Shown here: positions 7,520 to 50,657 of the stretch, piece after piece
How the letters are laid out: each line of letters begins with the position of its first letter
Position numbering within the stretch: position 1 is the stretch's first letter
Assembly (NCBI GenBank): GCA_965207915.1
Contig: OZ242304.1
Span: 92,524-156,523 of the forward strand
From: Chloroflexota bacterium
Lineage (GTDB): Bacteria; Chloroflexota; UBA11872; VXNJ01
Length of the DNA stretch: 64,000 nt
Direction: 5' to 3'
Translations under genes and position numbers: made by a program
Notes under the pieces: model-generated
What the model was told of the DNA's origin: nothing
Database searches by the model: none
The model's input: the letters and a program-made list of their open reading frames with translations, nothing else

Positions 7520-8419
7520 ATGCGGCCCGTCCTGATCGATTGCGACCCAGGGACCGACGATGCCCTGGCGATTTTTGCGGCCCTTAATTCACCGGACCTG
7601 GAGGTCGTCGGAGTCACCACGGTGGGCGGCAACGCCTCGCTGGCCGATACGACCCGCAACGCCCTGGATCTGCTTGAGATTTGCGGCCGCGGCGACATAC
7701 CGGTCTGGCGCGGCGCGGCCGGGCCGCTGTCCGGAGAGTTCACCTACGCGTATGAGTTTCACGGCGCCGGCGGGATTGGGGCGCGGTTGCCGGCGGCGGC
7801 GGCCGGCGCGCGATCCGGCCCGGCCGATGAGGCGATCGCGGCCGCGGCGCGCCGGCGGCCGGGCGAATTGACCCTGATAGCGCTGGGCCCGCTCACCAAC
7901 GTTGCCGTCGCGCTCGGCAACTGGCCGGAACTGGCCGGCGATTTGGCCGAAATCCTCGTAATGGGCGGAGCGCTGCAGGTGCCCGGCAACGTCACCGCGC
8001 ACGCCGAATTCAACATATACAACGACCCCCGGGCCGCCGTCGCCGTGTGTTCGAGCGGCGTCCCGGTCGCGCTGGTCGGGCTCGACGTGACCACCGCGGT
8101 CTCGATCGACCGGTCCGCCGACCACTGGCGCGGGGGGCGGTCGCGGACCGCCGTGCAGGCGGGGCGGATCCTGGATACCTGGTTCGACACGCACCCCGAT
8201 TTCGACCGCTACGACCTGCACGATCCGCTGACCGTGGCCGCCGCGATCGATCCTGGGATTTGCGAATGGCGGAGCGGCAGGCTGGCGGTGGACTCCGGCG
8301 ACGGGCCGGAGCGGGGCAGGACCGTGCTGGAGGACGGTGACGGTTCGGATCGCGCCGCCGTCGGAGTCGACGCAGTTCGCGCCCTGGCGGTGATTGGGGA
8401 CTTAGTCCAAGGCGGCTGA
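7520..8419 (+). CDS. nucleoside hydrolase (inosine/uridine-preferring family)
   Basis: N-terminal DCDPGTDDALAI fingerprint of the IU-nucleoside hydrolase family. ATG at 7520 with GGAGG at 7509-7513. The longer ORF-track start (7469) lacks an SD. Confidence 0.85.
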   Translation: MRPVLIDCDPGTDDALAIFAALNSPDLEVVGVTTVGGNASLADTTRNALDLLEICGRGDIPVWRGAAGPLSGEFTYAYEFHGAGGIGARLPAAAAGARSGPADEAIAAAARRRPGELTLIALGPLTNVAVALGNWPELAGDLAEILVMGGALQVPGNVTAHAEFNIYNDPRAAVAVCSSGVPVALVGLDVTTAVSIDRSADHWRGGRSRTAVQAGRILDTWFDTHPDFDRYDLHDPLTVAAAIDPGICEWRSGRLAVDSGDGPERGRTVLEDGDGSDRAAVGVDAVRALAVIGDLVQGG

Positions 8420-37766: not shown

Positions 37767-39518
37767 TTAGGCACCCCCGTGAAGATCCTCGCCGCGCAAC
37801 AGCCGGGCGGCAATCTCGTAAGTCTGCCCGAGTGACCTCACCGTCGGCGAGTGGGCCGAAAGGTAACGGGCGGCGGCGATGAGGAAGTGGCCGGCGCAGG
37901 CGCTCGCGGCGAACTGGCGGTACTGGCGCACCGCGGCCTCGTACATCTGGAAAGAATGGAATCCGGCATCCTCGCGCAATAGCGCGTGACCCAGCACCGC
38001 AACCACCTCGTCGGCCCGTCCGGCGGCGATCATGTCGGCGACGACCTGGCCGGCGACGTCTACGTGGCCCTGGGCGTCAAACGCCGCCAGCAGGTCAACC
38101 CCCGACGCCGGGCCCGTCCCGGGAACCGGAACCGCCTGCTTGGGCACGTTCAGGAACCGGTCCAGGTGCACCGACATCGCGCCGTCGAATATCCCGCGCG
38201 CCAGCAGGTTCGAAGGCGCGCGGCGCAGCGCCTGGTCGACCGCGTTGGCGTAGGTGAAGGTGTGCAGGACCGTTTCCCAGTCGCCGAATTCGTTGCTGGT
38301 GCCGAAATGGATCAATCGCCGGGCGGCCGCGTAGGCGACCGACGCTGAAAGGTCGGTCAGGGCAACTCCTTCGCCTACCAGGCGGCAGAGTTCGTCCAGG
38401 ACGGTCCGCGGTTCGCCGTCCAGCATCAGATCGGCCAGCTCCTGGTGTCCGTCCCAGCGCCCCCGCCGGCCGTTGGCGTCGAATCTGCTTGCAATGAGTC
38501 CATCAAGTTGCTCGTGCACGGCAAATAGCATCCCGGCCAGGTCGGCCGGCATGCGCCAGCTGGCGTTTTCCTCCATGCGGGCGGCGTTTACCAGGTTTCC
38601 GCCGGGCACCAGCGCCGGGAGGATCTCGCCGGCTTCATCCCAGCCAACATGGTCGAGCAGCTCGAACGACTTGTTGGCAAAGTCCAAAGTGTGGCCTCCG
38701 CCCATGTAGAGGTGATCGGTACAGGCGGCGGTGACGATGCCGGCGAGTACCTCAGGTTCGAATCCCAGATAGGCGGCGGTGCGAATGACCCGTTCGGCGG
38801 CATTGGCCGATCGCAGGTCTACGAACCGGCGGAACCAATCCAGGTACCGATCCGCACTGCGCTCGCTGGTCTGAAGCGGGTCGAGGTAGAAGTTCGGTGC
38901 CTGGTCGGTGGTGTCAGAAGCCACCGCCACGACACCGTGATACAGGGCCAGCGGACGATCTTCGCCGGACAATTCGGGAAGCACATTCGCCATTGCCGCC
39001 AGGATGGTGAGTCCCGGCGACCAGCCATCCGAACGGTTGCGGATGCCGAACTTGGCCGTGCGGGAAACGACGTCGGCGGATGCATCCACGCTGCAAAGTC
39101 CGATCACCGATTTGGCCAGGACCAGGCGGATGTTCTGCTCCAGCCCCTCCGAGAGCTTGCCTGCCCAGCGGCCGCGCTGGTCGGTCTCAATTGGCTCCGG
39201 ATCCAGCCACACCGAATCGTCCTCTACCCTGGTCCGGAACGGCGTGACGTCGTCGGCGAACGGGTCGAAGGTGCAGCCGCCGGCCAGATCGAACTTGGCA
39301 TGATGCCAGTGGCAGGTCAGGATCCCGTCGCTGACCGTGCCGCGGGACAGCGGGAAGCCCATGTGGGGGCAACGGTTGTCGACCGCGTACACGGTCCCCT
39401 CCGACTCCAGCACCAGGACGGTGCGCCCGTTGGCCGCGACCACCCGGCTCCCTTCGCGCCGCAACTCGCTTAACGGGCAGACTCGGATCCAGCCTGCCTC
39501 ATCCTGCATATTTCGCAT
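37767..39518 (-). CDS. Rieske [2Fe-2S] domain protein fused to a large uncharacterised C-terminal domain
   Basis: CPH-x16-CHWH Rieske motif at aa 50-72 (nt 39303-39371). About 470 further residues carry no motif I can place. ATG 39518 preceded by GGAAGG. Confidence 0.75.
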   Translation of the reverse strand: MRNMQDEAGWIRVCPLSELRREGSRVVAANGRTVLVLESEGTVYAVDNRCPHMGFPLSRGTVSDGILTCHWHHAKFDLAGGCTFDPFADDVTPFRTRVEDDSVWLDPEPIETDQRGRWAGKLSEGLEQNIRLVLAKSVIGLCSVDASADVVSRTAKFGIRNRSDGWSPGLTILAAMANVLPELSGEDRPLALYHGVVAVASDTTDQAPNFYLDPLQTSERSADRYLDWFRRFVDLRSANAAERVIRTAAYLGFEPEVLAGIVTAACTDHLYMGGGHTLDFANKSFELLDHVGWDEAGEILPALVPGGNLVNAARMEENASWRMPADLAGMLFAVHEQLDGLIASRFDANGRRGRWDGHQELADLMLDGEPRTVLDELCRLVGEGVALTDLSASVAYAAARRLIHFGTSNEFGDWETVLHTFTYANAVDQALRRAPSNLLARGIFDGAMSVHLDRFLNVPKQAVPVPGTGPASGVDLLAAFDAQGHVDVAGQVVADMIAAGRADEVVAVLGHALLREDAGFHSFQMYEAAVRQYRQFAASACAGHFLIAAARYLSAHSPTVRSLGQTYEIAARLLRGEDLHGGA

Positions 39519-39688: not shown

Positions 39689-40636
39689 CTAGTAAGAAAT
39701 CTCGTACCCGAGAAGTTTCGAATTGATGAGAGTGATGACCCCGATGACCAAGAACAGCAGGAAGGACAACGCCGCCGCAAAACCCATGCGCAGGTTGGTG
39801 AAAGCTTCCTCGTATATGAGCAGCACGATGGTTACGGTCGAATCTATCGGCCCGCCACAGCCGGTTGAGGGGTTCGGGCAGGCCATGATGAACACCTGCA
39901 CGAACATCTGCAGTGCCCCGATGAAGTAGACGATGACCACGAAGTAGGTGGTGGGGGCCAGCAGCGGGATCGTGATCCGGAACAGCTGGGAAATCCTTCC
40001 CGCCCCGTCGATCTCGGCCGCCTCGTAGAGGTGGGGAGGGATGCCCTGCAGGCCGGCCAGGTAGATGACCATGTTCAGGCCCATGTTCTTCCAGATGCTC
40101 ATGATGATGATGGCCAGCATGGCGGTCTCTGGTCCGCGCAGCCACTTCGAGGTCGGCAGGTCGAATGCCCGCAATACTTCGTTGGCCAGCCCGAACTGGG
40201 GTTCATACATCCAGAGCCAGATCAGCGAGACAGATACGAAGGACGAGACGACGGGCATGTAGAACATGGCCCGGAAGAAGTAGATCCCGCGGACCGCGCG
40301 ATTGACCAGCACCGCCAATAACAGCGACGTGATGACTCCGGCCGGTACGGTCCCGAACGCGAAGTAGACGGTGTTGCGGATCGCGGGAAACAGGCGCGGT
40401 TCCTTGGCCAGCAACCGGTAGTTCTTCAAGCCCTCGAATTCGGGCGCGGTCAGCAAGTCGTAGTCGTTGAAGGAGTAGTAGAACGCCCCGACGATCGGAA
40501 CGATGACGAACACGCTGATGAAAATGATCGACGGAAGAACGAAAAGATAAGAGGTGGGCCCGCCACGGTAGGTCAATCCCAATCTCCGGCGCAGATTCGT
40601 CTGCCAGGAGCTTTGAACCGTACCCGCCGTTTGCAT
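39689..40636 (-). CDS. carbohydrate-type ABC transporter permease (MalF/UgpA-type), copy 1
   Basis: YLFVLPSIIFISVFVIVPIVGAFYYSFNDY N-terminus and EAA loop LYEAAEIDGAGRISQLFRITIPLL. Start ATG 40636 with GGAGGG 6 nt upstream. Confidence 0.85.
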   Translation of the reverse strand: MQTAGTVQSSWQTNLRRRLGLTYRGGPTSYLFVLPSIIFISVFVIVPIVGAFYYSFNDYDLLTAPEFEGLKNYRLLAKEPRLFPAIRNTVYFAFGTVPAGVITSLLLAVLVNRAVRGIYFFRAMFYMPVVSSFVSVSLIWLWMYEPQFGLANEVLRAFDLPTSKWLRGPETAMLAIIIMSIWKNMGLNMVIYLAGLQGIPPHLYEAAEIDGAGRISQLFRITIPLLAPTTYFVVIVYFIGALQMFVQVFIMACPNPSTGCGGPIDSTVTIVLLIYEEAFTNLRMGFAAALSFLLFLVIGVITLINSKLLGYEISY

Positions 40637-40872
40637 CTGCGCCCTCCGCCCGCCTGCCTGCACTACTGACGGTTGACCTAGAAAACCGCGTTGGCCTAAA
40701 AGGTTAAGTGCTGTCCAAATCGAGTTGGTCTCAGTTTACGGAGACCAATCCTCTGCCGCACCCGATCCTTCGCCGACGATCTCGTCAGTCCGCTCCACTC
40801 ACCCTCCGGGTGTTACATAGGGGTATACGAGATTTCCGGATCCCGGAGCCGACCGGCTGGCGGGCAATCGCC

Positions 40873-41823
40873 CTAGTAGGAAATCTCGTACTCGAGCAGT
40901 TTCGAATTGATCAGGGTGATGATCCCGATAACCACGAACAGCAGGAACGAGAGCGCGGCCGCAAATCCCATGCGCAGGTTCGTGAATGCTTCCTCGTAGA
41001 TGAGCAGCACGATGGTTACGGTCGAATCCACCGGTCCGCCGCAACCGGCGGTGGCGTCCTGGCAGGCCATGATGAACACCTGCACGAACATCTGCAGGGC
41101 CCCGATGAAGTAGACGATGACCACGAAATATGTTGTGGGGGCCAGCAGCGGGATTGTGATCCGGAATAGCTTCGAGATCCTTCCCGCACCGTCGATTTCG
41201 GCCGCCTCGTAGAGGTGCGGTGGTATGCCCTGCAGGCCCGCCAGGTAGATGACCATATTCAGGCCCATGTTCTTCCAGATGCTCATGATGATGATGGCCA
41301 GCAGGGCGGTTTCGGGCCCGCGCAGCCACTTCGAGGTCGGCAGGTCGACGGCTTTGAGGAATTCGTTGGCCAGCCCGAACTGGGGCTCGTACATCCAGAG
41401 CCAAATAAGGGAGACGGAAACGAATGACGAGACCACCGGCATGTAGAACATGGCCCGGAAGAAGTAGATGCCGCGGATGGCGCGATTGACCAACACCGCC
41501 AGAAGCAGCGACGTTATCACCCCGGCCGGAACGGTCCCGAAGGCGAAGAAGACGGTGTTGCGAATCGCGGGAAACAGGCGCGGCTCCTTGCCGAGCAGCC
41601 GGTAGTTCTTCAATCCCTCGAATTCGGGCGCGGTCAGCAAGTCGTAGTCGTTGAATGAGTAGTAGAACGCCCCGATGATCGGAACGATGACGAACACGCT
41701 GATGAACAGGATCGACGGCAGGACGAATAGGTAGGAAGTGGCCCCGCCGCGATAGGTAAGGCCCAAGCGGCGGCGCAATTCTGCCAGCCAGGGACTTTTG
41801 TAGGTATCTGCAGTCTGCATCAT
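40873..41823 (-). CDS. carbohydrate-type ABC transporter permease (MalF/UgpA-type), copy 2
   Basis: Same architecture as copy 1. By manual alignment there are 20 substitutions and no indels over the 300 C-terminal residues. Confidence 0.85.
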   Translation of the reverse strand: MMQTADTYKSPWLAELRRRLGLTYRGGATSYLFVLPSILFISVFVIVPIIGAFYYSFNDYDLLTAPEFEGLKNYRLLGKEPRLFPAIRNTVFFAFGTVPAGVITSLLLAVLVNRAIRGIYFFRAMFYMPVVSSFVSVSLIWLWMYEPQFGLANEFLKAVDLPTSKWLRGPETALLAIIIMSIWKNMGLNMVIYLAGLQGIPPHLYEAAEIDGAGRISKLFRITIPLLAPTTYFVVIVYFIGALQMFVQVFIMACQDATAGCGGPVDSTVTIVLLIYEEAFTNLRMGFAAALSFLLFVVIGIITLINSKLLEYEISY

Positions 41824-41954
41824 CAGCTTCCGATCCGGCCGGAGCCAGCGGGGTCAAGCGCAGCGGGTTAATTGCCCTGTCTGCGACGATGGCGGTCAAA
41901 AGGCGACGCGTTCGAGTTGATGGCAGTCTAAGTTGGCCGCCCGACGCTTTTTGG

Positions 41955-42773
41955 CTAGTAGAAGACCGCGCTCCCGATGCCCCCGCCGGCCGAAATAACC
42001 TCCCCGGTAATCGCCGCGGCCTTGTCCGAGGCCAGGAACGCGGCAAGATAGCCCACTTCGTCGGCTTCGATCATCCGGCCGACGGCGTTGCCTGACGCGG
42101 CGCCCGGGGCGAACTGGCGCCGTTCCAATTCCTCCGGCGAAATACCAAGATCGCGGGCCTGGGCGGCCTGCATCCCGGGCGTTCGCTCGGTGCGAGTTGC
42201 GCCGGGATGGATGCAGTTGACGGTTATGCCGTGTGGGCCCAGGTCGATTGACAAGGTCTTCGTCTGGTGAACGAGAGCGACATTGCGCGCCCCTCCGCTG
42301 AGATTGCCGGCATTCCGCGCGTTCCCTCCGGAGATGTTGATGATGCGTCCCCAGCCGGCGTTTTTCAGATACGGGATCGCGGCCCGGCTCAGCCGGAGGG
42401 CCCCGACGTACTTGACGTCGAAGTCGCTGAGCAGGGATTCCTCGTTCACGGTTTCGATGTAACCGATCGCGTCGGCCGCCCCGCCGGGGTGCGACGCGCT
42501 GTTTACCAAGATATGCAGTCCGCCCAGGCGCTCGGCGGCCGCGTCGACGGTTCGGTTCACCTGCTCGGTGCTGAGGGCATCCATGACCATGGGAATCACC
42601 GTTGCCCCGGTTTGCCCCGAAATCTCGCGCGCCGAGTCCTCCACCTGACTGCTGGTGCGGGCCGCGATCGCCACGTCGCATCCCTCGCCGGCCAGCGCGC
42701 GCGCGATCGCCTTGCCGATGCCGCGCCCGCCGCCGGCCACCAGGGCATTTCGACCAGTTAGTCCAAAATCCAT
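41955..42773 (-). CDS. SDR family oxidoreductase
   Basis: ALVAGGGRGIGKAIA, NSAS, and an Y..K-type active-site region. Start at MDFGLTG (42773). Confidence 0.85.
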   Translation of the reverse strand: MDFGLTGRNALVAGGGRGIGKAIARALAGEGCDVAIAARTSSQVEDSAREISGQTGATVIPMVMDALSTEQVNRTVDAAAERLGGLHILVNSASHPGGAADAIGYIETVNEESLLSDFDVKYVGALRLSRAAIPYLKNAGWGRIINISGGNARNAGNLSGGARNVALVHQTKTLSIDLGPHGITVNCIHPGATRTERTPGMQAAQARDLGISPEELERRQFAPGAASGNAVGRMIEADEVGYLAAFLASDKAAAITGEVISAGGGIGSAVFY

Positions 42774-42898
42774 GTCAGTCTCCGGCTGATTTAGGTTGGG
42801 AACGGCGCCGACCGGAGCGCAAGCTTTTAGCCGGTTCCGCCGCAGTTTTCTAGTATCGGGACCACTCAAAAACGTCTCCGCCGAACAGCCTTAACGGG

Positions 42899-45800
42899 CT
42901 AATCGACCGGCCCCAGCAGGGCAGCGTCCGACCATTCGCCGATTTCGTTTCCACTGACTGTCCGGACCTGGAATGCGTACGCAAGCCCCGGTTCCAGCCC
43001 AGATATCACCTGGACGGTTTCGAGGTCGTTGCGGGCCCGCCCGGCAAACGTCCAGTAGAAATCGGCCAACCCGGCGGCGCCGGCGAATATGTACCTGACG
43101 TGGTAACCCGTAATCGGCGGCCCATCCGGGTCTTGCGGAGCACCCCAACGCAGCAGCGCCGAATCAGCCGAACGGGCGGCCGACGTGATGGCGGATGCGC
43201 CGGGCGGTCCCGAAGCGCGCACGATCACGAAGACGTAGTCTCGGTGCCGGGTTCCATCGGCAGCGGTAATCCGGGCGATCAGGATGTTGGGGCCGATCCG
43301 CAGCGGGATATTTCCGCTGTCGGGCAGCGGTTGCCGGTTCCCGTCCGGACCCAGCAACGCCAGCAGCTGGTGGGTTGCGGCCGGATCGGTGGGGATGGGC
43401 GCAAACTCTATCGACTCGGTCTCGGTCGCGACCTGTCGGCGCAGAACGTTGCGGTCGGCCGGCAGCGACGATATCGACCCGGAGAACGCCACCGAGTGCA
43501 GCCCGGCATCCCCGGGCCGGGCGCGTTCTATCCAGAGCGTGTAGGTCTGCAGGAACGTCCGGCTTCTTACCCGCACCCGCAGGATTTTTGGCTGGGAATC
43601 TGCCGCAAGGTCGGCCAGGTCGAATTGAAATCCGGACAGCGTCGGGTCGGCGTCCTCCAGCTGCTCGAACCCGGCATCCAGGAACAGAACCCGGGACTCT
43701 GGTTCAAAGGCGGCGGCGTTGACCGTGATGCGGTCGATTGGCGGGTCTGCCGGTTGAATGCTCAGCCGGTACCTGGTGCGCTCCGGGTCGAACGTTGGAA
43801 CCAGCACCGCCGGCCCTGTTTCCAACCGCGTCAGGCCGATGTCGCAGTAGGGAAGGCCTAGTTCGGCAAAGTCGTGGAACCGGAGGGTGTTGTTGCGCAT
43901 GCCCGCCGGCACGCAACCGGTAAGCCGGTTGCCGGCAAGGCGCAGGATCTCCAACCGGTCCAGCCGCTGCAGCCGCCCGGGGATCTGGCCCACCAGCCTG
44001 TTCTCGGACAGGCCCAGCGCAACGAGTCCGGTCAGCTCGGCCAGTTCCTCGGGAATGGGGCCTTCGAAGCGGTTGCGGTCGAGCCCGAGCACCCGAAGTT
44101 GCGGCAACCGGGCCAGCTCGACCGGTACCGGTCCGGCAAACCGGTTCCCGGCCAGATCGAGTTCCAGCAGTTCGGTCAGCCCGGCCAATGACCCGGGTAT
44201 CGGCCCGCTCAGCGAATTGTCCGCGAGCAGCAAGCGCCGCATGTGCGCCAGGCCGGTGATGCTTTGCGGGAGGACCCCGTTGAGGCCGTTGCCGGCCAGG
44301 TCCAGTTCGATCACCCGGCCGGCCCGGTCGGTCTCCACCCCGTGCCAGTCCGCGAGCGGGACGGGAGATAACCAGCCGTCGGCTGCCCGCCAACCGGGAC
44401 CGCCGACGGCATGAAAGAGCTCGCCCAGAATGGCGCGCTCGTCGGGCAGGCGCTCGATGCTGATTTCCGCCGTCCCGACCGCGGAACGGTCGGGGGATAC
44501 CGTTCGGATCAGCGCCCGGTTCAAGCCCACCGCGAGCCGCAGGTGGGCGATGCCGCCCGCGTCGATTTCGAACGGGATTCCCGAGATACTTGCCGATGCG
44601 CCCGGATTGGCGGGCAGGGGGCGGATCGCCAGCGTTCGGGTCGCATGGCCAACCCGGTGCGCGATTTCCCGGTCGCCGACGATCGGCCGCTGATCGATCA
44701 GCACTCCGAAAAGCCCAGCGTCGTCAGGTCGCGGTCGGCCAACTTCGAAGCGGTATTCGGACGTTCGCTCCGGGGCTGACAGGCGGACCCGCAGACTGAA
44801 CGGGTACCCGCTGGATCCGGCATCCGGCAGCGCCATCTGGAATCCGTCCAGTGCGGGGTCGGCGTCGTCGAGAGGGATGCCGTCCCCGTCCAGGAATTCC
44901 AGTCGCCCGGCGCCCGGGAAGGCGACCGGGGTCAGGGTCAGCGGCGCCGGCGGTCCCTCGACCGGATCGGTCACGAACCGGTATTCGAAGCGGTCGCTCG
45001 CGAATCCGGGGGTCATCGCGCCGCCCCGGACAGTCAACTCGGCCAGGGCCACGTCGCAGGCGGGGAGGCTCAACTGGTCCAGATCCGTAAACCCGAGTTC
45101 CAGCGCCAGGGCCTCCGTCGGGACGCAGCCCGTGAACCGGTTGCCGGCCAGATAGAGCTCGAACAGTTCGGCGAGATTGCCTAATCCGGTTGGAAGAGGG
45201 CCGGTGAAGTTGTTGTTGGAGAGGTCCAGCGAGTACATGCGGACAAGCTCGCCGATTCCCGGCGGAATCTCGCCGCTCAGCGCATTGTGCTGCAGGTGGA
45301 GCCGGGTCAGGGCCTGCAGCCGATCAAGTCCCTGCGGCAGCGGCCCGGAAAGGTTGTTGCCGTTCGCCCGCAGGTCGGTCAATGCGGAAAGGTCGGCCAA
45401 AGTTTCCGGAAGCGGGCCGTTAAGGAGGTTGTGCTCAAGCCGCAGGCGCCGCAGGCGCTCGAGGCCTCCGATTTCGGTGGGAATCTCCCCGATGAACCGG
45501 TTGCGGGCAAGATTCAGATAGGTCAACTCGGTGAGTTCGGTCGCCCATTTCGGGATTGGGCCGGACAGCGAGTTGCTATCCAGTCGCAGAATCCGCAGCT
45601 GCCGCAAGTCGGCCAGAGCCGCCGGCAGCGGGCCGGAGAAACGGTTGGAATGTAGTTCCAGCTCGCGCAACCGGCCGAATTCCCCCAGGAGTTCAGGCAC
45701 CGGGCCGGCAAAAAGGTTTTCGCCCAGGTGCAGGCGCTCAAGGCCGGCAATGGCGACTAGCTCCTGCGGGATCTGCCCGGTAAGAAGGTTGCCGGAGAGC

Positions 45801-47371
45801 AGCAACCAGCGCAATTCGGCGAGTTCGCCAAGCTCGGGCGGAATCTGCCCGCTCAGGCGATTGTCGGAAAGGTCGAGGCGCCGCAGGCGCGCGAGCTGGG
45901 CGAGCGCCGGCGGCACCGGGCCGGTCAGATCGCAGTTGTTGAGGAAAAGCCATTCGAGGCGATCCATGCCGCCGATCCAGTATGGAATCGTCCCGTTGAG
46001 GCGGTTCCCACCGAGCTCCAGGCGGCGCAGGCCCTCGATCTCGGCCAGTTGAGTCGGAATCGGTCCGGATAGCGAGTTGTTGCTCAGGTCGATCCATTCG
46101 AGCCGCTCCATGCCCGCCAGCCAGACCGGTATGTGACCGGCGAAGTGGTTGCCGCCCAGGACAAGCTCGCGCAGCCGGTCTAGATTGAGCAATTCGACCG
46201 GGATCGCCCCCATGAATACATTTCGCTCCAGGTGCAGCTGCTCCAATCCGGCGAGTTCGCCGATCCAGTCCGGCAGCCCCTCCTGGAACCGGTTGCCACC
46301 CAGCCGCAGGGACTGCAGCGCGGAAAGGCCGCGCACCGCGGCTGGAAACGGCCCGTCGAGCGAGTTTTCGGACAAGTCCAGCTCGCGAAGCTGGCCGAAC
46401 TCGCCGATTGCCGCCGGCACCGGTCCGGTGAGTTCATTGCGGGCGAGCCGGAGGACTCGCAGCCGGCTCTCTTCTGGGACCTGGTCCGGAATCGGGCCGG
46501 CTAAGCTGTTCCCGGAAAGATCGAGGTGCTCGAGCGCGGGCAAGGTGAGCAAGTCACCTGGCAGCGTGCCGTCCAGACCGTTGTCCGTCAGGTCCAGCAC
46601 GGCCAGCGAATTGAGTGACGTAATTGAGGGCGGGATTGGCCCGGAAAGCTGGTTTCCGGAAAGGCGCAGACTCGTCAGCGTTTGCAGATCGCCCAGTTCC
46701 GGCGGGATCTGGCCGGTGAGCATGTTTGCGGACAAGTCGATCCGGCGCAATCCGGCGATTGACCCGAACCCGGGCGGGATGCGGTCCAGCAGGCGATTGC
46801 CGGATAGGTCCATGATTTCCAGGGACGCGAGTTCGGCAATCTCGTCGGGAATGCGACCGACGAGCCGGTTGTCGGAAAGGTCAAGCAGGGTCAGGCTCGC
46901 GGCCGACCCCAAGGCACGCGGAATCGATCCGCTGAGCCGGTTGCCGCGCAGGGAAAGCGACCGCAGTTGTGCCAGCTTGCCGAACCGGACCGGTATCGCC
47001 CCGCGCAGGGCGTTGGCCGACAGATCCAGCTGCCCAAGGCGCTCGAGTTCGCCCAGCTCCGGTGCGATCTCGCCGCGGAGCCCGTTGCCCGCAAGACCGA
47101 TCGCCGTGACGTTGCCTTCTTCGTCGGTAGTGACTCCGTGCCATTCGGATAGCGGCGATTCGGTCAACCATCCTGACGAATCGACCCATTCGGCACCGCC
47201 GGCCGACTCGAAAAAGCCCTCCAGGATCGCCCTTTCGGCCGGTTCGGATGCAATTGCCCGCTCGGCATCGGGCTGCCCGCCCACGGGGTCGGCGGTGCGC
47301 TGACCGTTGTCCTCGACGGGCGCCAGGGTCAAGGTCGCGAATGCCAGCAGGGCGATGACCGGTTCACGCAC
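42899..47371 (-). CDS. large exported leucine-rich-repeat protein (plant-type 24-residue LRRs) with beta-sandwich and FN3-like domains
   Basis: 1,490-aa ORF with a GTG start and a hydrophobic N-terminus (VIALLAFATLTLAPV). It contains 28 + 6 consecutive 24-aa repeats fitting LxxLxxLxLxxNxLsGxIPxxLgxLxx. The C-terminus is FN3-like (LLRWGAPQDPDGPPITGYHVRY..YAFQVRTVSGNEIGEWS). Confidence 0.85.
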   Translation of the reverse strand: MREPVIALLAFATLTLAPVEDNGQRTADPVGGQPDAERAIASEPAERAILEGFFESAGGAEWVDSSGWLTESPLSEWHGVTTDEEGNVTAIGLAGNGLRGEIAPELGELERLGQLDLSANALRGAIPVRFGKLAQLRSLSLRGNRLSGSIPRALGSAASLTLLDLSDNRLVGRIPDEIAELASLEIMDLSGNRLLDRIPPGFGSIAGLRRIDLSANMLTGQIPPELGDLQTLTSLRLSGNQLSGPIPPSITSLNSLAVLDLTDNGLDGTLPGDLLTLPALEHLDLSGNSLAGPIPDQVPEESRLRVLRLARNELTGPVPAAIGEFGQLRELDLSENSLDGPFPAAVRGLSALQSLRLGGNRFQEGLPDWIGELAGLEQLHLERNVFMGAIPVELLNLDRLRELVLGGNHFAGHIPVWLAGMERLEWIDLSNNSLSGPIPTQLAEIEGLRRLELGGNRLNGTIPYWIGGMDRLEWLFLNNCDLTGPVPPALAQLARLRRLDLSDNRLSGQIPPELGELAELRWLLLSGNLLTGQIPQELVAIAGLERLHLGENLFAGPVPELLGEFGRLRELELHSNRFSGPLPAALADLRQLRILRLDSNSLSGPIPKWATELTELTYLNLARNRFIGEIPTEIGGLERLRRLRLEHNLLNGPLPETLADLSALTDLRANGNNLSGPLPQGLDRLQALTRLHLQHNALSGEIPPGIGELVRMYSLDLSNNNFTGPLPTGLGNLAELFELYLAGNRFTGCVPTEALALELGFTDLDQLSLPACDVALAELTVRGGAMTPGFASDRFEYRFVTDPVEGPPAPLTLTPVAFPGAGRLEFLDGDGIPLDDADPALDGFQMALPDAGSSGYPFSLRVRLSAPERTSEYRFEVGRPRPDDAGLFGVLIDQRPIVGDREIAHRVGHATRTLAIRPLPANPGASASISGIPFEIDAGGIAHLRLAVGLNRALIRTVSPDRSAVGTAEISIERLPDERAILGELFHAVGGPGWRAADGWLSPVPLADWHGVETDRAGRVIELDLAGNGLNGVLPQSITGLAHMRRLLLADNSLSGPIPGSLAGLTELLELDLAGNRFAGPVPVELARLPQLRVLGLDRNRFEGPIPEELAELTGLVALGLSENRLVGQIPGRLQRLDRLEILRLAGNRLTGCVPAGMRNNTLRFHDFAELGLPYCDIGLTRLETGPAVLVPTFDPERTRYRLSIQPADPPIDRITVNAAAFEPESRVLFLDAGFEQLEDADPTLSGFQFDLADLAADSQPKILRVRVRSRTFLQTYTLWIERARPGDAGLHSVAFSGSISSLPADRNVLRRQVATETESIEFAPIPTDPAATHQLLALLGPDGNRQPLPDSGNIPLRIGPNILIARITAADGTRHRDYVFVIVRASGPPGASAITSAARSADSALLRWGAPQDPDGPPITGYHVRYIFAGAAGLADFYWTFAGRARNDLETVQVISGLEPGLAYAFQVRTVSGNEIGEWSDAALLGPVD
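43883..44314 (-). repeat. coding tandem repeat: 6 x 72 bp (LRR module 2, aa 1020-1163)
   Basis: Runs from VIELDLAGNGLNGVLPQSITGLAH to LEILRLAGNRLTGCVPAGMRNNTL. Boundaries were verified against the DNA codons. Confidence 0.85.
45095..47110 (-). repeat. coding tandem repeat: 28 x 72 bp (LRR module 1, aa 88-759)
   Basis: I counted the repeats one by one from VTAIGLAGNGLRGEIAPELGELER to LFELYLAGNRFTGCVPTEALALEL. There is no phase break or insertion. Boundaries were verified against the DNA codons. Confidence 0.85.
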
Positions 47372-49187: not shown

Positions 49188-50657
49188 CTACTGGTACATG
49201 ATCAGATCCGGCCGCCGGTCTATGGCCTGGACCTGCTCGGGAGTCATCGGCGGCGTGTCCTGGTCGAAAAAGATCTTGAAGGCCGGTCGCTCCGACGGTG
49301 CGGTCAGGGCGTACCAGCCGTAATGCCGCAGCTTGATGCCGATCCCGCCGAACCCGTCCATGTCGATCGATAGTTCGACGTCGTCGACGCTCTCGATGGC
49401 GGCGCGGTCCTCGATCATGTGCGCGGTGAACTGGTGCACCATCAGGATCTTGGGCGGTATGCCCTCCTGGCGCGACAGGTCGGCCAGATAGTGCTGGACC
49501 GCGTTGATCTGGTCCGCATTGATGCCTCCGATGGCCAGCCCGGGCCGCAGTCCGGAGGTCTCGGTGGCAAATTCAGGGTCGAGGGCCATGTGCACGAACG
49601 GCTCGCGCAGGAACTCCTCCAGCAGCTGGACCTCCCGCAAGGGATCGCTCCAGCCGATCTGGACATCCAGGAACAGCAGCATCCCGCGTTCGCGGGCCGC
49701 TTCCACATAGGGGGCGATACCGGCCCGAGGCAGCCGGTAAAGCCAGGTTCCGTCGGCAGTCGGATTGGCCTGGGCCACGCCGGTGATCAGGTGGTAGGCC
49801 GGGATCACCGCGCGCGGTCCATTCAGGGCGTCGTAGCGCGCCGCCCAGACCGCGATTTCGTCCGCCACCTCGGCCGGCGATCCGTGTCCCAGCACGCCCA
49901 TCACCGGCACATTCGGGTGCCCGTAGAACGAAACCACCTGGGCATCCTCGAACACCGAACGCCGCGTCGGCGGCCGGGGGAACGTCCAGGCCCGGTCCCG
50001 ATCTGACACGAGCAGGTAGCTCCGGCCCGGCACCAGGTGCGAAAGACCGCTCAGCACCCGTGGCACGTCATCGCCCCAGCCCAGGATCAACGGTGAACTG
50101 CCCGGCACCAGCGACCAGACGGTGAGCCCGGGGACCGTACCCCCGCCGTTGCGCTCCCAGTTCAGCCAGCCGAGCGCCCTACCGGCGAACGCATCGCCGA
50201 TTGCGGTCCGCGGGCCGGTCCATTTCACCCACGTCGACCCCCGGCGGAGCAGGACGTCGCACTGCGGGAGGGCTCCGAGTCCGTTGATCGGGACAGCGGC
50301 GGACCAGTTCAGGTCGGAGGAATATGCCAGCACCCGGGCCGATTGGCCGTGGCAGAGATACGCGCGCTTGTAGTCGATTCGGACCGGTGAGGGTCCGGCG
50401 ACCCAGTGCTCCGAAAAACCGCCGCCGGGAGCGCGCAACTTCACCCGCGCGGGTCGGTCGCAATCGATCGTTATCGCCAGCGGGGTGCTGAGCGGCGAGC
50501 CGGCCACCAGATCGACACCGCCCGGTCCGTTGACTGCCGCGGCGGTGACCTGGCACGGCCCGGAAGCGGCCGCCGGAGTTGCTCCGGCGAGCGTAAAGGC
50601 GAATACGCCAAGCAGCGCCAGCAACGGTAGGGCTCTCAACGGAGGCAGTCGCCGCAT
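49188..50657 (-). CDS. secreted protein of unknown function
   Basis: Clear signal peptide (MRRLPPLRALPLLALLGVFAFTLAGATPAAAS). The N-terminal domain of about 200 aa has 4 Cys. The C-terminal domain of about 270 aa (VSFYGHPNVPVMGVLG...LFLDVQIGW...ALDPEF...LMVHQF) resembles a conserved actinobacterial lipoprotein family of unknown function. Confidence 0.6.
   Translation of the reverse strand: MRRLPPLRALPLLALLGVFAFTLAGATPAAASGPCQVTAAAVNGPGGVDLVAGSPLSTPLAITIDCDRPARVKLRAPGGGFSEHWVAGPSPVRIDYKRAYLCHGQSARVLAYSSDLNWSAAVPINGLGALPQCDVLLRRGSTWVKWTGPRTAIGDAFAGRALGWLNWERNGGGTVPGLTVWSLVPGSSPLILGWGDDVPRVLSGLSHLVPGRSYLLVSDRDRAWTFPRPPTRRSVFEDAQVVSFYGHPNVPVMGVLGHGSPAEVADEIAVWAARYDALNGPRAVIPAYHLITGVAQANPTADGTWLYRLPRAGIAPYVEAARERGMLLFLDVQIGWSDPLREVQLLEEFLREPFVHMALDPEFATETSGLRPGLAIGGINADQINAVQHYLADLSRQEGIPPKILMVHQFTAHMIEDRAAIESVDDVELSIDMDGFGGIGIKLRHYGWYALTAPSERPAFKIFFDQDTPPMTPEQVQAIDRRPDLIMYQ

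What the first reader, a model, noticed from the sequence alone, without database searches (positions are those of the whole stretch)
42899..47371. 1,490-aa exported protein built from 28 + 6 perfectly phased plant-type (24-residue, GxIP) LRRs with LRRNT-like caps
**Seen, in order along the protein.**
1. A hydrophobic N-terminus.
2. A cap ..ERAILEGFFESAGGAEW..WLTESPLSEWHGVTTDEEGNVTAIGL.
3. 28 uninterrupted repeats of exactly 24 residues (aa 88-759), fitting LxxLxxLxLxxNxLsGxIPxxLgxLxx with no island or phase slip.
4. A Cys-containing C-cap (NRFTGCVP...LSLPACD).
5. Two roughly 100-aa beta-sandwich-like segments (LAELTVRGGAMTPGFASDRFEYRF.. and GLFGVLIDQRPIVGD..).
6. A second cap plus 6 repeats.
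7. Two more sandwich segments.
8. An FN3-like C-terminus.

There is no C-terminal TM anchor, sortase motif or lipobox.

**Established.** The 24-residue repeat with the GxIP second half, together with a W..W.GV..D N-cap, is the signature of plant RLK/RLP/PGIP ectodomains. Many of those have 20-30 such repeats. Well-known bacterial LRR effectors mostly use 20-22-residue repeats.

**Inference.** This is a eukaryote-like, probably secreted or surface-exposed ligand- or host-binding protein. By eye the gene is as GC-rich as its neighbours, which argues against very recent acquisition or eukaryotic contamination.
Basis: partly seen in the sequence, partly recalled or inferred. Interest (0 to 1): 0.75.

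Follow-up and report, generated by a model that had tools for sequence, protein, structure and literature searches.

The report
Plant-class LRR protein of sponge symbiont
A sponge-associated Chloroflexota bacterium encodes a genuine, intact 1,490-residue exported protein whose 34 leucine-rich repeats are of the type best known from plant receptors, but that repeat type with its cysteine-free cap is common in bacteria, so this is a well-preserved member of a known kind.

Summary
One ORF (42899-47371, minus strand, 1,490 aa) encodes 28 + 6 in-phase 24-residue repeats of the plant-specific LRR class. It is not an assembly artefact: the repeat units average 43% DNA identity, and ten independent assemblies carry a 1,490-aa allele at the same syntenic position. 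Its codon usage matches its neighbours. The best sequence and fold matches among solved structures are all plant receptor ectodomains (GSO1, FLS2, PEPR1, BRI1). The cysteine-free N-cap plus plant-class LRR cassette occurs in 104 of the 120 best homologues, nearly all prokaryotic, usually several times per protein. Plant-class LRRs in bacteria, and LRR, cadherin-like and fn3 proteins in sponge symbionts, are already published. The layout is signal peptide, then [cap - LRRs - Cys-pair C-cap - two Cadherin-like beta-sandwiches] twice, then FN3. Only one orthologue shares it (41% identity, same 28 + 6 count). The most likely role is a secreted or surface binding protein for host matrix or other extracellular ligands; no ligand is known. 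Verdict: new member of a known kind, modest interest.

The parts
42899..47371 (-). Complete CDS, 1,490 aa plus stop, GTG start; an AGGGA Shine-Dalgarno-like motif lies about 8 nt upstream.
   Evidence: intact 4,473-nt alleles in 10 other assemblies
47315..47371 (-). N-terminal hydrophobic segment (aa 1-19, MREPVIALLAFATLTLAPV): a Sec signal peptide or signal anchor. The cleavage site is uncertain.
   Evidence: It is the most hydrophobic 15-mer of the protein (KD 2.34) and the only such segment. The orthologue, with its start moved upstream, has an RR n-region, a hydrophobic core and ASA|L.
47111..47239 (-). N-cap 1 (aa 45-87, ERAILEGFFESAGGAEW...WLTESPLSEWHGVTTDEEGN): the bacterial Cys-free counterpart of the plant LRRNT.
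   Evidence: In-register phmmer alignment to the N-caps of GSO1 and FLS2; no Pfam LRRNT_2 hit; the same motif occurs in 104/120 homologues; predicted helix followed by strands, at low pLDDT.
45095..47110 (-). LRR 1-28 (aa 88-759): 28 x 24 residues of the plant-specific class in unbroken phase. Repeat 28 doubles as the start of the C-cap.
   Evidence: Pfam; PDB phmmer GSO1 E = 5.8e-135 in one stretch, aa 106-754; AF2 solenoid pLDDT 70-94; Foldseek top 50 all plant LRR-RKs
45047..45142 (-). C-cap 1 (aa 744-775, NRFTGCVP...LSLPACD) with the conserved Cys pair C749/C772; overlaps repeat 28.
   Evidence: the Cys are invariant in the P0009 alignment
44732..45046 (-). Cadherin-like beta-sandwich A (aa 776-880).
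   Evidence: 33% identical to A'; A' aligns to a bona fide PF12733 domain of L012; HMMER hits are multi-PF12733 surface proteins; predicted all-beta at low confidence
44447..44731 (-). Cadherin-like beta-sandwich B (aa 881-975).
   Evidence: Pfam PF12733 25.4 bits against cutoff 24.2, aa 905-974
44315..44446 (-). N-cap 2 (aa 976-1019, ERAILGELFHAVGGPGW...WLSPVPLADWHGVETDRAGR).
   Evidence: 49% identical to cap 1; 53% identical to P0009; predicted helix with pLDDT about 76
43883..44314 (-). LRR 29-34 (aa 1020-1163): 6 x 24 residues of the same class.
   Evidence: pLDDT 76-94
43832..43930 (-). C-cap 2 (aa 1148-1180, NRLTGCVP...LGLPYCD) with the Cys pair C1153/C1176; overlaps repeat 34.
43517..43831 (-). 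Cadherin-like beta-sandwich A' (aa 1181-1285).
43196..43516 (-). Cadherin-like beta-sandwich B' (aa 1286-1392).
   Evidence: PF12733 20 bits, E = 9e-4, when scanned alone; aligns to L012 PF12733 regions
42902..43195 (-). C-terminal fibronectin type III domain (aa 1393-1490).
   Evidence: Pfam fn3 E = 8e-8, 32.8 bits against cutoff 25; E = 5e-9 when scanned alone
44468..44822 (-). Divergent tract (gene nt 2550-2904, aa 850-968) where the window allele differs from all 10 other alleles at about 32 sites; probably a recombination import.
   Evidence: no second copy in the window

Best explanation
This is a native, functional gene of an uncultured Chloroflexota lineage recovered repeatedly from marine-sponge metagenomes. 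It encodes a Sec-exported, non-enzymatic binding protein.

Architecture (shown): signal peptide, then two tandem copies of one module, [Cys-free N-cap helix - plant-specific-class LRR solenoid (28 repeats, then 6) - Cys-pair C-cap - two Cadherin-like beta-sandwich domains], then one FN3 domain.

Mechanism (inferred):
- The long superhelical 28-LRR solenoid and the short 6-LRR arc are the ligand-binding elements. They would bind proteins, peptides or glycoconjugates along their inner faces, as plant LRR ectodomains do.
- The beta-sandwich and FN3 domains act as spacers and/or glycan- or matrix-binding feet. The same sandwich domain occurs in SLH- and T9SS-anchored bacterial surface proteins.
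- With no anchor other than a possible uncleaved N-terminal signal, the protein is either released or held at the cell surface non-covalently.
- In its ecological setting the most probable role is attachment to, or recognition of, sponge extracellular matrix or cell-surface components. That makes it a 'eukaryote-like repeat protein' of the kind enriched in sponge symbionts.

The structural identity is near certain. Export is probable. The host-directed role and the ligand are untested.
For: - Repeat class and fold: consensus; Pfam; the 40 best PDB sequence hits are plant LRR-RKs; GSO1 E = 5.8e-135; solenoid model; in many repeats it shows the second beta-strand typical of plant LRRs; Foldseek top 50 all plant ectodomains.
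- Native gene under selection: GC3 0.79 like its neighbours; intact in 11/11 genomes at one syntenic site; piN/piS 0.43.
- Conserved orthologue: 41% identity, 1% gaps, the same 28 + 6 count and the same module order. Framework positions are 74% identical.
- Export: the N-terminus is the only strongly hydrophobic segment, the orthologue has a classic signal peptide, and the only paired cysteines sit in the two C-caps and are conserved.
- Surface-type accessory domains: PF12733 and fn3. PF12733 relatives carry SLH, CHU_C, Spondin_N and Calx-beta domains.
- Habitat: neighbouring proteins are named Chloroflexi/Chloroflexota MAG. Sample labels ENGE20 and ROBB21 match the sponge MAG studies of Engelberts 2020 and Robbins 2021 by my reading of the labels.
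- Literature: LRR, cadherin and fn3 genes are enriched in sponge MAGs including Chloroflexota (PMC8163846). LRR genes occur in sponge Caldilineae and SAR202 (PMC6306507).
Against: - No ligand, localisation or expression data exist for this protein.
- Surface residues are poorly conserved between the orthologues (concave 28%, convex 21%), so no conserved binding patch stands out.
- The window protein's signal peptide is atypical: a short MRE n-region and Pro after the best AXA-like site.
- The same cap + LRR cassette occurs in proteins without TM segments or signal peptides that carry kinase domains, and in non-sponge metagenomes including contigs labelled human gut. The cassette itself therefore does not imply host interaction.
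- The neighbouring genes (GMC oxidoreductase, SDR, ABC permeases, Rieske) give no functional clue, and the orthologue sits in a different context next to an IS1595 transposase.
- The sandwich and FN3 part of the model is low-confidence.
Confidence: 0.55

Rival explanations
1. It is a general extracellular binding or scaffold protein unrelated to the host. Possible roles are bacterium-bacterium adhesion, biofilm or sheath organisation, or capture of polymeric substrates. It would use a binding cassette that is common in large bacterial proteins of many habitats.
For: - Thousands of prokaryotic proteins share the cassette, fused to proteases (reprolysin-like, subtilase, trypsin), PPC and Big_2 domains, some on contigs of 4-6 Mb.
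- Cap-bearing relatives occur in diverse metagenomes.
- The flanking genes are metabolic.
- PF12733 domains are typical of carbohydrate-active and surface proteins.
Against: - All 11 genomes that carry the gene appear to come from sponge metagenomes.
- LRR, cadherin and fn3 genes are statistically enriched in sponge MAGs relative to seawater MAGs (PMC8163846).
- The closest cassette relatives in the metagenome scan carry accession prefixes that I recall, without verification, as sponge metagenomes.
Confidence: 0.3
2. It is an effector that acts inside host cells, for example to modulate phagocytosis after uptake by sponge archaeocytes. This would be analogous to the plant-class LRR type III effectors XopAC and XopL.
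For: - NCBIfam XopAC, XopAE and XopL are the best-scoring named bacterial families, through their LRRs.
- Lysine is almost absent: 3 of 1,490 residues, K/(K+R) 0.02 against 0.10-0.36 in 14 neighbours. By my recollection, lysine scarcity has been linked to evasion of host ubiquitination.
- Eukaryote-like repeat proteins of sponge symbionts have been linked to phagocytosis evasion (PMC8163846).
Against: - All Xop scores are below the curated cutoffs, and the protein has no Fic or E3 domain.
- Few sponge symbiont lineages encode the genes for secretion systems (PMC8163846).
- A Sec-type N-terminus, conserved Cys pairs and the Cadherin-like and FN3 domains point to an extracytoplasmic, oxidising location.
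- The orthologue is not lysine-poor (K/(K+R) 0.14).
Confidence: 0.1
3. It is a recent horizontal acquisition from a plant, alga or other eukaryote, or eukaryotic contamination of the assembly.
For: The best solved-structure matches are all plant proteins. Plant LRR-RLKs appear among the database hits at 31-34% identity.
Against: - GC and GC3 equal those of the neighbours.
- The gene is one uninterrupted ORF in a same-strand run of bacterial genes, at the same site in 11 genomes.
- The cap is the bacterial Cys-free type.
- There is no TM segment and no kinase domain.
- Bacterial homologues are at least as close as plant ones, at 33-45% identity.
Confidence: 0.03
4. The repeat array or its copy number is an assembly artefact.
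For: Nothing beyond the general risk that applies to tandem repeats.
Against: - The repeat units are only 43% identical on average at DNA level, and the longest shared word is 14 nt.
- TRF detects no 72-bp array.
- Ten independent assemblies give the identical length.
- An orthologue at 41% identity has the same count.
Confidence: 0.01

Closest known systems
Plant LRR receptor ectodomains of the plant-specific (PS) LRR class (GSO1/SGN3 6s6q, FLS2 4mn8, PEPR1 5gr8, RGFR1 5hyx, BRI1 3rgz; PGIP 1ogq as the class prototype)
   Same: - 24-residue repeat with the LxxLxLxxNxLxGxIPxxL consensus.
- A long uninterrupted array: 28 repeats here, aligned to GSO1 in one stretch.
- An N-terminal helix + W.GV..D cap aligned in register.
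- A Cys-containing C-cap and an extracytoplasmic location.
- Best sequence and fold matches.
   Different: - No transmembrane helix, kinase or island domain.
- The N-cap lacks both plant cysteines and is not detected by Pfam LRRNT_2.
- It is followed by Cadherin-like beta-sandwich and FN3 domains and by a second cap-LRR module.
- It is a bacterial gene with bacterial codon usage.
Bacterial multi-cassette cap + PS-LRR giant proteins from genomes and metagenomes (P0001-P0120); phenomenon described by Miyashita, Kuroki, Kretsinger & Matsushima 2013, Nat Sci 5:580
   Same: The same Cys-free cap motif (DRAAL.ALY.AT.G..W...NWL...PL.EW.GV.TD..GRV..L.L) followed by PS-class repeats, often ending with a GC.P...C C-cap. 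The cap occurs in 104/120 of these proteins and the C-cap in 50/120. Identity is 33-45%.
   Different: - Most have many short cassettes (up to 8 caps) rather than one 28-repeat array plus one 6-repeat array.
- They carry other accessory domains: proteases, PPC, Big_2, kinases.
- Only P0009 shares the full module order.
Eukaryote-like repeat proteins (ELPs/ELRs) of sponge symbionts (Robbins 2021 PMC8163846; Bayer 2018 PMC6306507; Reynolds & Thomas 2016 and Diez-Vives 2017, both cited in PMC6306507)
   Same: An LRR protein encoded by a sponge-associated Chloroflexota MAG. It combines LRR with cadherin-like and fn3 domains, all categories reported as enriched in sponge MAGs and as subject to lateral transfer.
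   Different: Those studies counted Pfam families. This particular protein, its LRR class and its architecture were not described in the texts I read. Functional evidence in that literature concerns ankyrin-repeat proteins, not LRRs.
Xanthomonas type III effectors with plant-class LRRs (XopAC/AvrAC, XopL, XopAE)
   Same: Bacterial proteins whose LRRs score best among the named bacterial families in NCBIfam (XopAC 380 bits, XopAE 274, XopL 150).
   Different: All scores are below the curated cutoffs (450, 600 and 500). There is no Fic or E3-ligase domain, no T3SS context, a Sec-type N-terminus and far more repeats.
Listeria internalins and Leptospira LRR proteins (LIC12759 4u09, LIC11098 4u08)
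   Same: Secreted or surface bacterial LRR proteins with Ig-like or beta-sandwich domains after the LRRs. The general adhesin logic is the same.
   Different: - Internalins have repeats of a different class: 22-residue, SDS22-like (recalled from memory, not tested here).
- Scores are far below the cutoffs (internalin_A 76 bits against 1600).
- PDB E-values are about 1e-40, against 1e-135 for plant proteins.
- There is no LPXTG motif.

Membership tests
Plant-specific (PS) LRR class (Kobe/Kajava classification) | Repeat length of 24 residues | tested here: met
   34/34 repeats are exactly 24 residues and in phase.
Plant-specific (PS) LRR class (Kobe/Kajava classification) | Consensus LxxLxxLxLxxNxLxGxIPxxLxx (as quoted in PMC5296948) | tested here: met
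   N9 33/34, G13 32/34, I/L/V15 33/34, P16 33/34, L/I19 27/34.
Plant-specific (PS) LRR class (Kobe/Kajava classification) | Closest solved structures belong to the PS class; twisted solenoid with a second beta-strand per repeat | tested here: met
   The 40 best phmmer hits and the 50 best Foldseek hits are plant LRR-RK/RLP ectodomains. DSSP on the model shows two strands plus a short helix in many repeats. This is a predicted model, not an experimental structure.
Plant-specific (PS) LRR class (Kobe/Kajava classification) | Restricted to extracellular proteins of plants (original 1998/2001 description, quoted in PMC2244805) | tested here: not met
   The gene is bacterial. This taxonomic criterion is already obsolete: see Miyashita et al. 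2013.
Plant LRR receptor kinase / receptor-like protein | Pfam LRRNT_2 N-cap with paired cysteines | tested here: not met
   No LRRNT_2 hit at E <= 10 for either cap. The positions of the plant Cys are Ser and Thr.
Plant LRR receptor kinase / receptor-like protein | Single-pass transmembrane helix after the ectodomain, with or without a cytoplasmic kinase | tested here: not met
   No hydrophobic segment other than the N-terminus and no kinase domain.
XopAC/AvrAC, XopAE and XopL type III effectors (NCBIfam) | Score above the curated whole-protein cutoff | tested here: not met
   380 against 450, 274 against 600 and 150 against 500 bits. The matches lie in the LRR repeats only.
Class 1 internalins (NCBIfam) | Score above the cutoff; LPXTG anchor | tested here: not met
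   76 bits against 1600; no LPXTG motif.
Cadherin-like beta-sandwich domain (Pfam PF12733) | Score above the gathering threshold | tested here: met
   25.4 bits against 24.2 for the whole protein, best on aa 905-974; the margin is small. B' scores 20 bits alone. A and A' are supported only by pairwise alignment to PF12733 domains of L012 and by HMMER hits to multi-PF12733 proteins.
Fibronectin type III (Pfam PF00041) | Score above the gathering threshold | tested here: met
   32.8 bits against 25, aa 1396-1482.
Sponge-symbiont eukaryote-like repeat proteins (operational category) | LRR Pfam domains in a genome recovered from sponge tissue | tested here: met
   Pfam LRR hits. Contigs are labelled ENGE20 and ROBB21 with Chloroflexota MAG names. 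The sponge origin is inferred from the sample labels and the cited studies, not from sample metadata.
Sponge-symbiont eukaryote-like repeat proteins (operational category) | Demonstrated interaction with host cells or matrix | not testable with these tools
   This needs binding or phagocytosis assays.
Diversity-generating retroelement target | Variable region with a nearby template repeat and a reverse transcriptase | tested here: not met
   The variable tract has no second copy in the 64-kb window. Substitutions are of all types and include many synonymous ones. The window's ORFs were not scanned for a reverse transcriptase.

The most novel reading that the evidence does not exclude
The exact retention of 28 + 6 repeats across an orthologue pair that has diverged to 41% identity, with framework positions 74% identical and surface positions 21-28%, would mean the solenoid is a length-calibrated receptor for a long extended ligand. 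That would make it a bacterial analogue of plant peptide receptors such as GSO1 or FLS2, with a specificity that co-evolves with different hosts. In addition, the abundant bacterial Cys-free cap + PS-LRR cassette, rather than being borrowed from plants, could be the ancestral source of the plant LRR receptor ectodomain.
Probability: 0.1. Interest if true: 0.65.

Novelty: new member of a known kind. Interest (0 to 1): 0.3.

Why it matters
The protein is a clean, full-length and well-supported example of the 'eukaryote-like' LRR proteins that sponge-microbiome studies have so far only counted by Pfam family. Several properties make it a practical candidate for the first biochemical test of what symbiont LRR proteins bind in a sponge:
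- it is a single-copy gene at a fixed locus;
- eleven alleles are available;
- one distant orthologue has an identical repeat count;
- the domain boundaries and likely disulfides are defined.

The survey made here shows that the Cys-free cap + plant-class LRR cassette is widespread and modular in bacteria. It also shows that the cap is a distinct bacterial counterpart of the plant LRRNT. Both points bear on the old question of the direction of LRR transfer between bacteria and plants. None of this overturns current understanding.

Tried and rejected
- **Plus-strand reading** of the given coordinates gave only stop-ridden frames; the gene is on the minus strand.
- **Wrong neighbour ORF.** ORF 41896-42681(-), first taken as the downstream neighbour, is a wrong frame (GC3 0.52, no Pfam hit). 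The real neighbour is an SDR in the 41955-42869(-) frame.
- **Diversity-generating retroelement** as the cause of the variable tract (aa 850-968): rejected. There is no template copy in the window, the substitution spectrum is mixed and many changes are synonymous.
- **Positive or diversifying selection on the LRR gene:** not supported. piN/piS is 0.43, and the gene's diversity is only 2-3 times that of most neighbours; the Rieske gene is just as diverse.
- **Word-indexed homologue search with the sandwich module** returned nothing. It had missed a 114-bit match to P0009, so I discarded it as evidence of absence and replaced it with the index-free HMMER search.
- **Exact look-up of the window protein** found nothing. 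Near-identical alleles were reached through the neighbouring GMC oxidoreductase instead.
- **Genome-collection scan** found only an unrelated giant Cadherin-like protein in a Tepidiformaceae MAG.
- **Metagenome scan** found cap + LRR relatives but no further protein with the full architecture.
- **Organism names** for ten NCBI-held homologues were not on record.
- **The second AlphaFold model** (aa 750-1490, two-sequence alignment) had mean pLDDT 52, so I did not run a fold search on it.
- **Engelberts et al. 2020** (PMC7174397) is not held in the paper library.
- **Transcription signals:** no sigma-70-like promoter and no minus-strand terminator was found around the gene. This is uninformative for Chloroflexota.


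Full report
**1. The observation**

The coordinates hold one ORF, but on the minus strand. It runs from a GTG at 47371 to a stop ending at 42899 and encodes 1,490 aa. Cutting the protein into 24-residue blocks from aa 88 gives 28 consecutive repeats with no slip or island, ending at aa 759. A second block of six repeats is best registered at aa 1020-1163.

Over all 34 repeats the framework is almost invariant: L6 33/34, N9 33/34, L/F11 34/34, G13 32/34, I/L/V15 33/34 and P16 33/34. The consensus is LrxLdLsgNrLsGpIPxeLgeLar. Pfam LRR_1 and LRR_8 score E = 5e-96 and 7e-87. fn3 is found at aa 1396-1482 (E = 8e-8), and a Cadherin-like beta-sandwich (PF12733) just clears its threshold at aa 905-974.

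The protein has no C-terminal hydrophobic segment, no LPXTG motif and no N-terminal cysteine for a lipobox.

**2. Not an artefact and not foreign**

- Tandem Repeats Finder sees no 72-bp array.
- The 34 units average 43% DNA identity (maximum 68%), and the longest exact word shared by two units is 14 nt. Collapse or expansion during assembly is therefore implausible.
- Using the adjacent GMC oxidoreductase as a handle, I retrieved ten independent public assemblies, with contigs up to 2.3 Mb. All have the same gene order and a 4,473-nt intact allele at the same position.
- GC (66.4%) and GC3 (0.79) match the neighbours, whose GC3 is 0.81-0.85.
- Across the eleven genomes piN/piS is 0.43, so the gene is maintained by selection.

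Cluster-mates of the neighbouring proteins are named 'MAG... Chloroflexi/Chloroflexota bacterium'. The contig labels ENGE20 and ROBB21 point to the sponge MAG studies of Engelberts 2020 and Robbins 2021. That link is my reading of the labels and is consistent with PMC8163846.

**3. Repeat class**

Against all solved structures, the 40 best sequence matches are plant LRR receptor ectodomains. GSO1 scores E = 5.8e-135 with aa 106-754 aligned in a single stretch, and FLS2 scores 1e-120. Leptospira LRR proteins, the best-scoring bacterial structures, reach about 1e-40, and animal SHOC-2 about 1e-34.

A single-sequence AlphaFold model of aa 36-790 is a regular solenoid: mean pLDDT 72.6, with most of the LRR core at 70-94. 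Many repeats show two strands plus a short helix. Its 50 best Foldseek matches in the PDB are again all plant ectodomains. Assignment to the plant-specific LRR class is therefore solid.

**4. The caps**

Pfam LRRNT_2 does not detect either cap, even at E <= 10. phmmer does align the second half of cap 1 (SEWHGVTTDEEGNVTAIGL) in register with the true N-caps of GSO1 (CSWTGVTCD...) and FLS2 (CNWTGITCD...). The two plant cysteines are replaced by Ser and Thr.

The Cys-free form, with its upstream helix motif (D/ERAAL.ALY.AT.G..W...NWL...PL), occurs in 104 of the 120 best database homologues and in two or more copies in 96 of them. The plant C.W.GV.C form occurs only in the five eukaryotic hits. 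The cap alone is 40-49% identical to caps in proteins from very different metagenomes, including two contigs labelled human gut. 'LRRNT-like' is thus correct as a resemblance, but the cap belongs to a distinct and abundant bacterial type.

Each C-cap (NRFTGCVP...LPxCD) holds a Cys pair that is invariant in the orthologue. Apart from one Cys in repeat 17, these are the only cysteines in the protein.

**5. Overall architecture**

The region after the first C-cap (aa 760-930) is 33% identical to the region after the second (aa 1165-1336), and the two caps are 49% identical. The protein is therefore an internal duplication of one module, [cap - LRRs - C-cap - sandwich A - sandwich B], followed by FN3.

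An index-free HMMER search of 1.84 billion representatives with sandwiches A + B gave only 214 hits at E <= 1e-3. Those I examined are multi-PF12733 surface proteins carrying SLH, CHU_C (type IX secretion), Spondin_N or Calx-beta domains, with no LRRs. Sandwich A' aligns directly to a bona fide PF12733 domain. All four sandwiches are therefore divergent Cadherin-like beta-sandwich domains.

The second AlphaFold model (aa 750-1490) was confident only for repeats 29-34. It predicted beta-rich segments where the sandwiches lie, and I did not use it further.

**6. Relatives**

A full-length search returned 4,821 proteins at E <= 1e-20 within the capped candidate set. Nearly all come from prokaryotic genomes and metagenomes, many exceed 2,000 aa, and they are fused to proteases, PPC, Big_2 and other domains.

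Only one shares the whole architecture: P0009, from a JGI metagenome. It is 41% identical over 1,463 aligned residues with 1% gaps. It has the same 28 + 6 repeats (two of them shortened by one residue) and the same order of caps, sandwiches and FN3. It sits in a different genomic context, next to an IS1595 transposase.

Between the two orthologues, framework positions are 74% identical, concave-face variable positions 28% and convex ones 21%. The scaffold and its length are conserved while both surfaces have diverged.

When its start is moved upstream, P0009 has a classic signal peptide: an RR-containing n-region, a hydrophobic core and ASA|L. The window protein has a shorter and less typical one.

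**7. Function**

*Shown:* the fold class, the domain order, the probable export signal and selective maintenance.

*Inferred:* the LRR solenoids are the binding elements, and the sandwich and FN3 domains are spacers or glycan/matrix-binding feet. The protein is secreted or held at the surface without a covalent anchor. In a sponge symbiont the likely targets are host matrix or cell-surface molecules.

The published literature supports the category. LRR, cadherin and fn3 genes are enriched in sponge MAGs, including Chloroflexota, and are among the laterally transferred genes (PMC8163846). LRR genes were noted in sponge Caldilineae and SAR202 (PMC6306507). There is no functional evidence for any symbiont LRR protein.

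The main rival is a host-independent extracellular binding role. Several findings keep it alive: the cassette is ubiquitous, it also occurs in kinase-LRR proteins without TM segments, and the gene neighbourhood is uninformative. An intracellular-effector role is less likely, because the Xop family scores fall below their cutoffs, the N-terminus is Sec-type, and the Cys pairs and surface-type domains point outside the cell. Plant origin or contamination, and mis-assembly, are effectively excluded.

**8. Comparison with what is known, and novelty**

Plant-class LRRs in bacteria have been described (Miyashita et al. 2013, cited in PMC9471246). The older view that the class is exclusive to plants (quoted in PMC2244805) is outdated. 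Eukaryote-like LRR proteins of sponge symbionts are a recognised category.

Three things are specific here:
- one exceptionally long and regular 28-repeat array;
- the duplicated cap-LRR-sandwich-sandwich module ending in FN3;
- preservation of the repeat count in a distant orthologue.

I rate this as a new member of a known kind, with modest interest (0.3). The most novel reading still open is a length-calibrated bacterial receptor for an extended ligand and/or a bacterial origin of the plant ectodomain cassette. I give that about 10%.

Noticed in passing
window 44468-44822 (-), gene nt 2550-2904, aa 850-968: Within otherwise 99.9-100% identical loci, the window allele differs from all ten other alleles at about 32 sites in 355 nt (about 9%), both synonymous and non-synonymous. 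The tract lies in sandwich domains A/B. It looks like a short recombination import from a diverged allele. No donor copy exists in the window.
   Followed up: yes
window 42899-47371 (-), whole protein: Lysine is almost absent: 3 of 1,490 residues (K132, K608, K1262). K/(K+R) is 0.02, against 0.10-0.36 in 14 other proteins of the window and 0.14 in the orthologue P0009. The depletion is gene- and lineage-specific and unexplained. Protease resistance, avoidance of cross-linking or avoidance of ubiquitination are possibilities.
   Followed up: partly
P0039 and P0041 (hits): Prokaryotic-looking proteins of about 1,880 aa (one on a 4.3-Mb contig) are built as [Ser/Thr kinase - Cys-free cap - plant-class LRR array] x 2, with no predicted transmembrane segment. 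This is a soluble bacterial kinase-LRR combination that recalls plant LRR-RLKs, but with the kinase N-terminal to its LRR array.
   Followed up: partly
L012 7-11595 (+), Tepidiformaceae MAG CBDBNV010000001.1; also P0184: A giant ORF of at least 3,862 aa combines seven Cadherin-like beta-sandwich domains with Spondin_N, Cadherin and Calx-beta domains. Spondin_N is best known as an animal extracellular-matrix domain (from memory, not tested here).
   Followed up: partly
L001 7971-8330, upstream of P0009: The called start of the orthologue (TTG at 8328) probably truncates it. An in-frame GTG at 8244/8247 adds VRRPLGTRRWWLLHRAATVLAAASIG..., which gives a complete signal peptide with a twin-arginine-like TRRWWLL motif.
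   Followed up: partly
L001 5498-7882: The orthologue's gene is immediately preceded by an IS1595-family transposase and an N6/N4 methyltransferase-HNH gene, and it is not syntenic with the window locus. This is consistent with mobility of the LRR gene.
   Followed up: no
window 37767-39518 (-), Rieske-domain protein: This gene has the highest synonymous diversity of the locus across the genomes (piS 0.018, 32 segregating sites, 580- and 583-aa variants). That suggests a second recombination-affected gene about 4 kb downstream of the LRR gene.
   Followed up: partly
window 49188-50657 (-): A conserved 478-489-aa ORF two genes upstream has no Pfam hit. It is called with three different start codons in different assemblies, and piN is 0 across the eleven genomes.
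   Followed up: no
window 39689-41823 (-): The two ABC permease genes have a markedly lower overall GC (0.585-0.589) than the rest of the window but the same GC3 (0.84). The drop is therefore an amino-acid composition effect of membrane proteins, not foreign DNA.
   Followed up: yes
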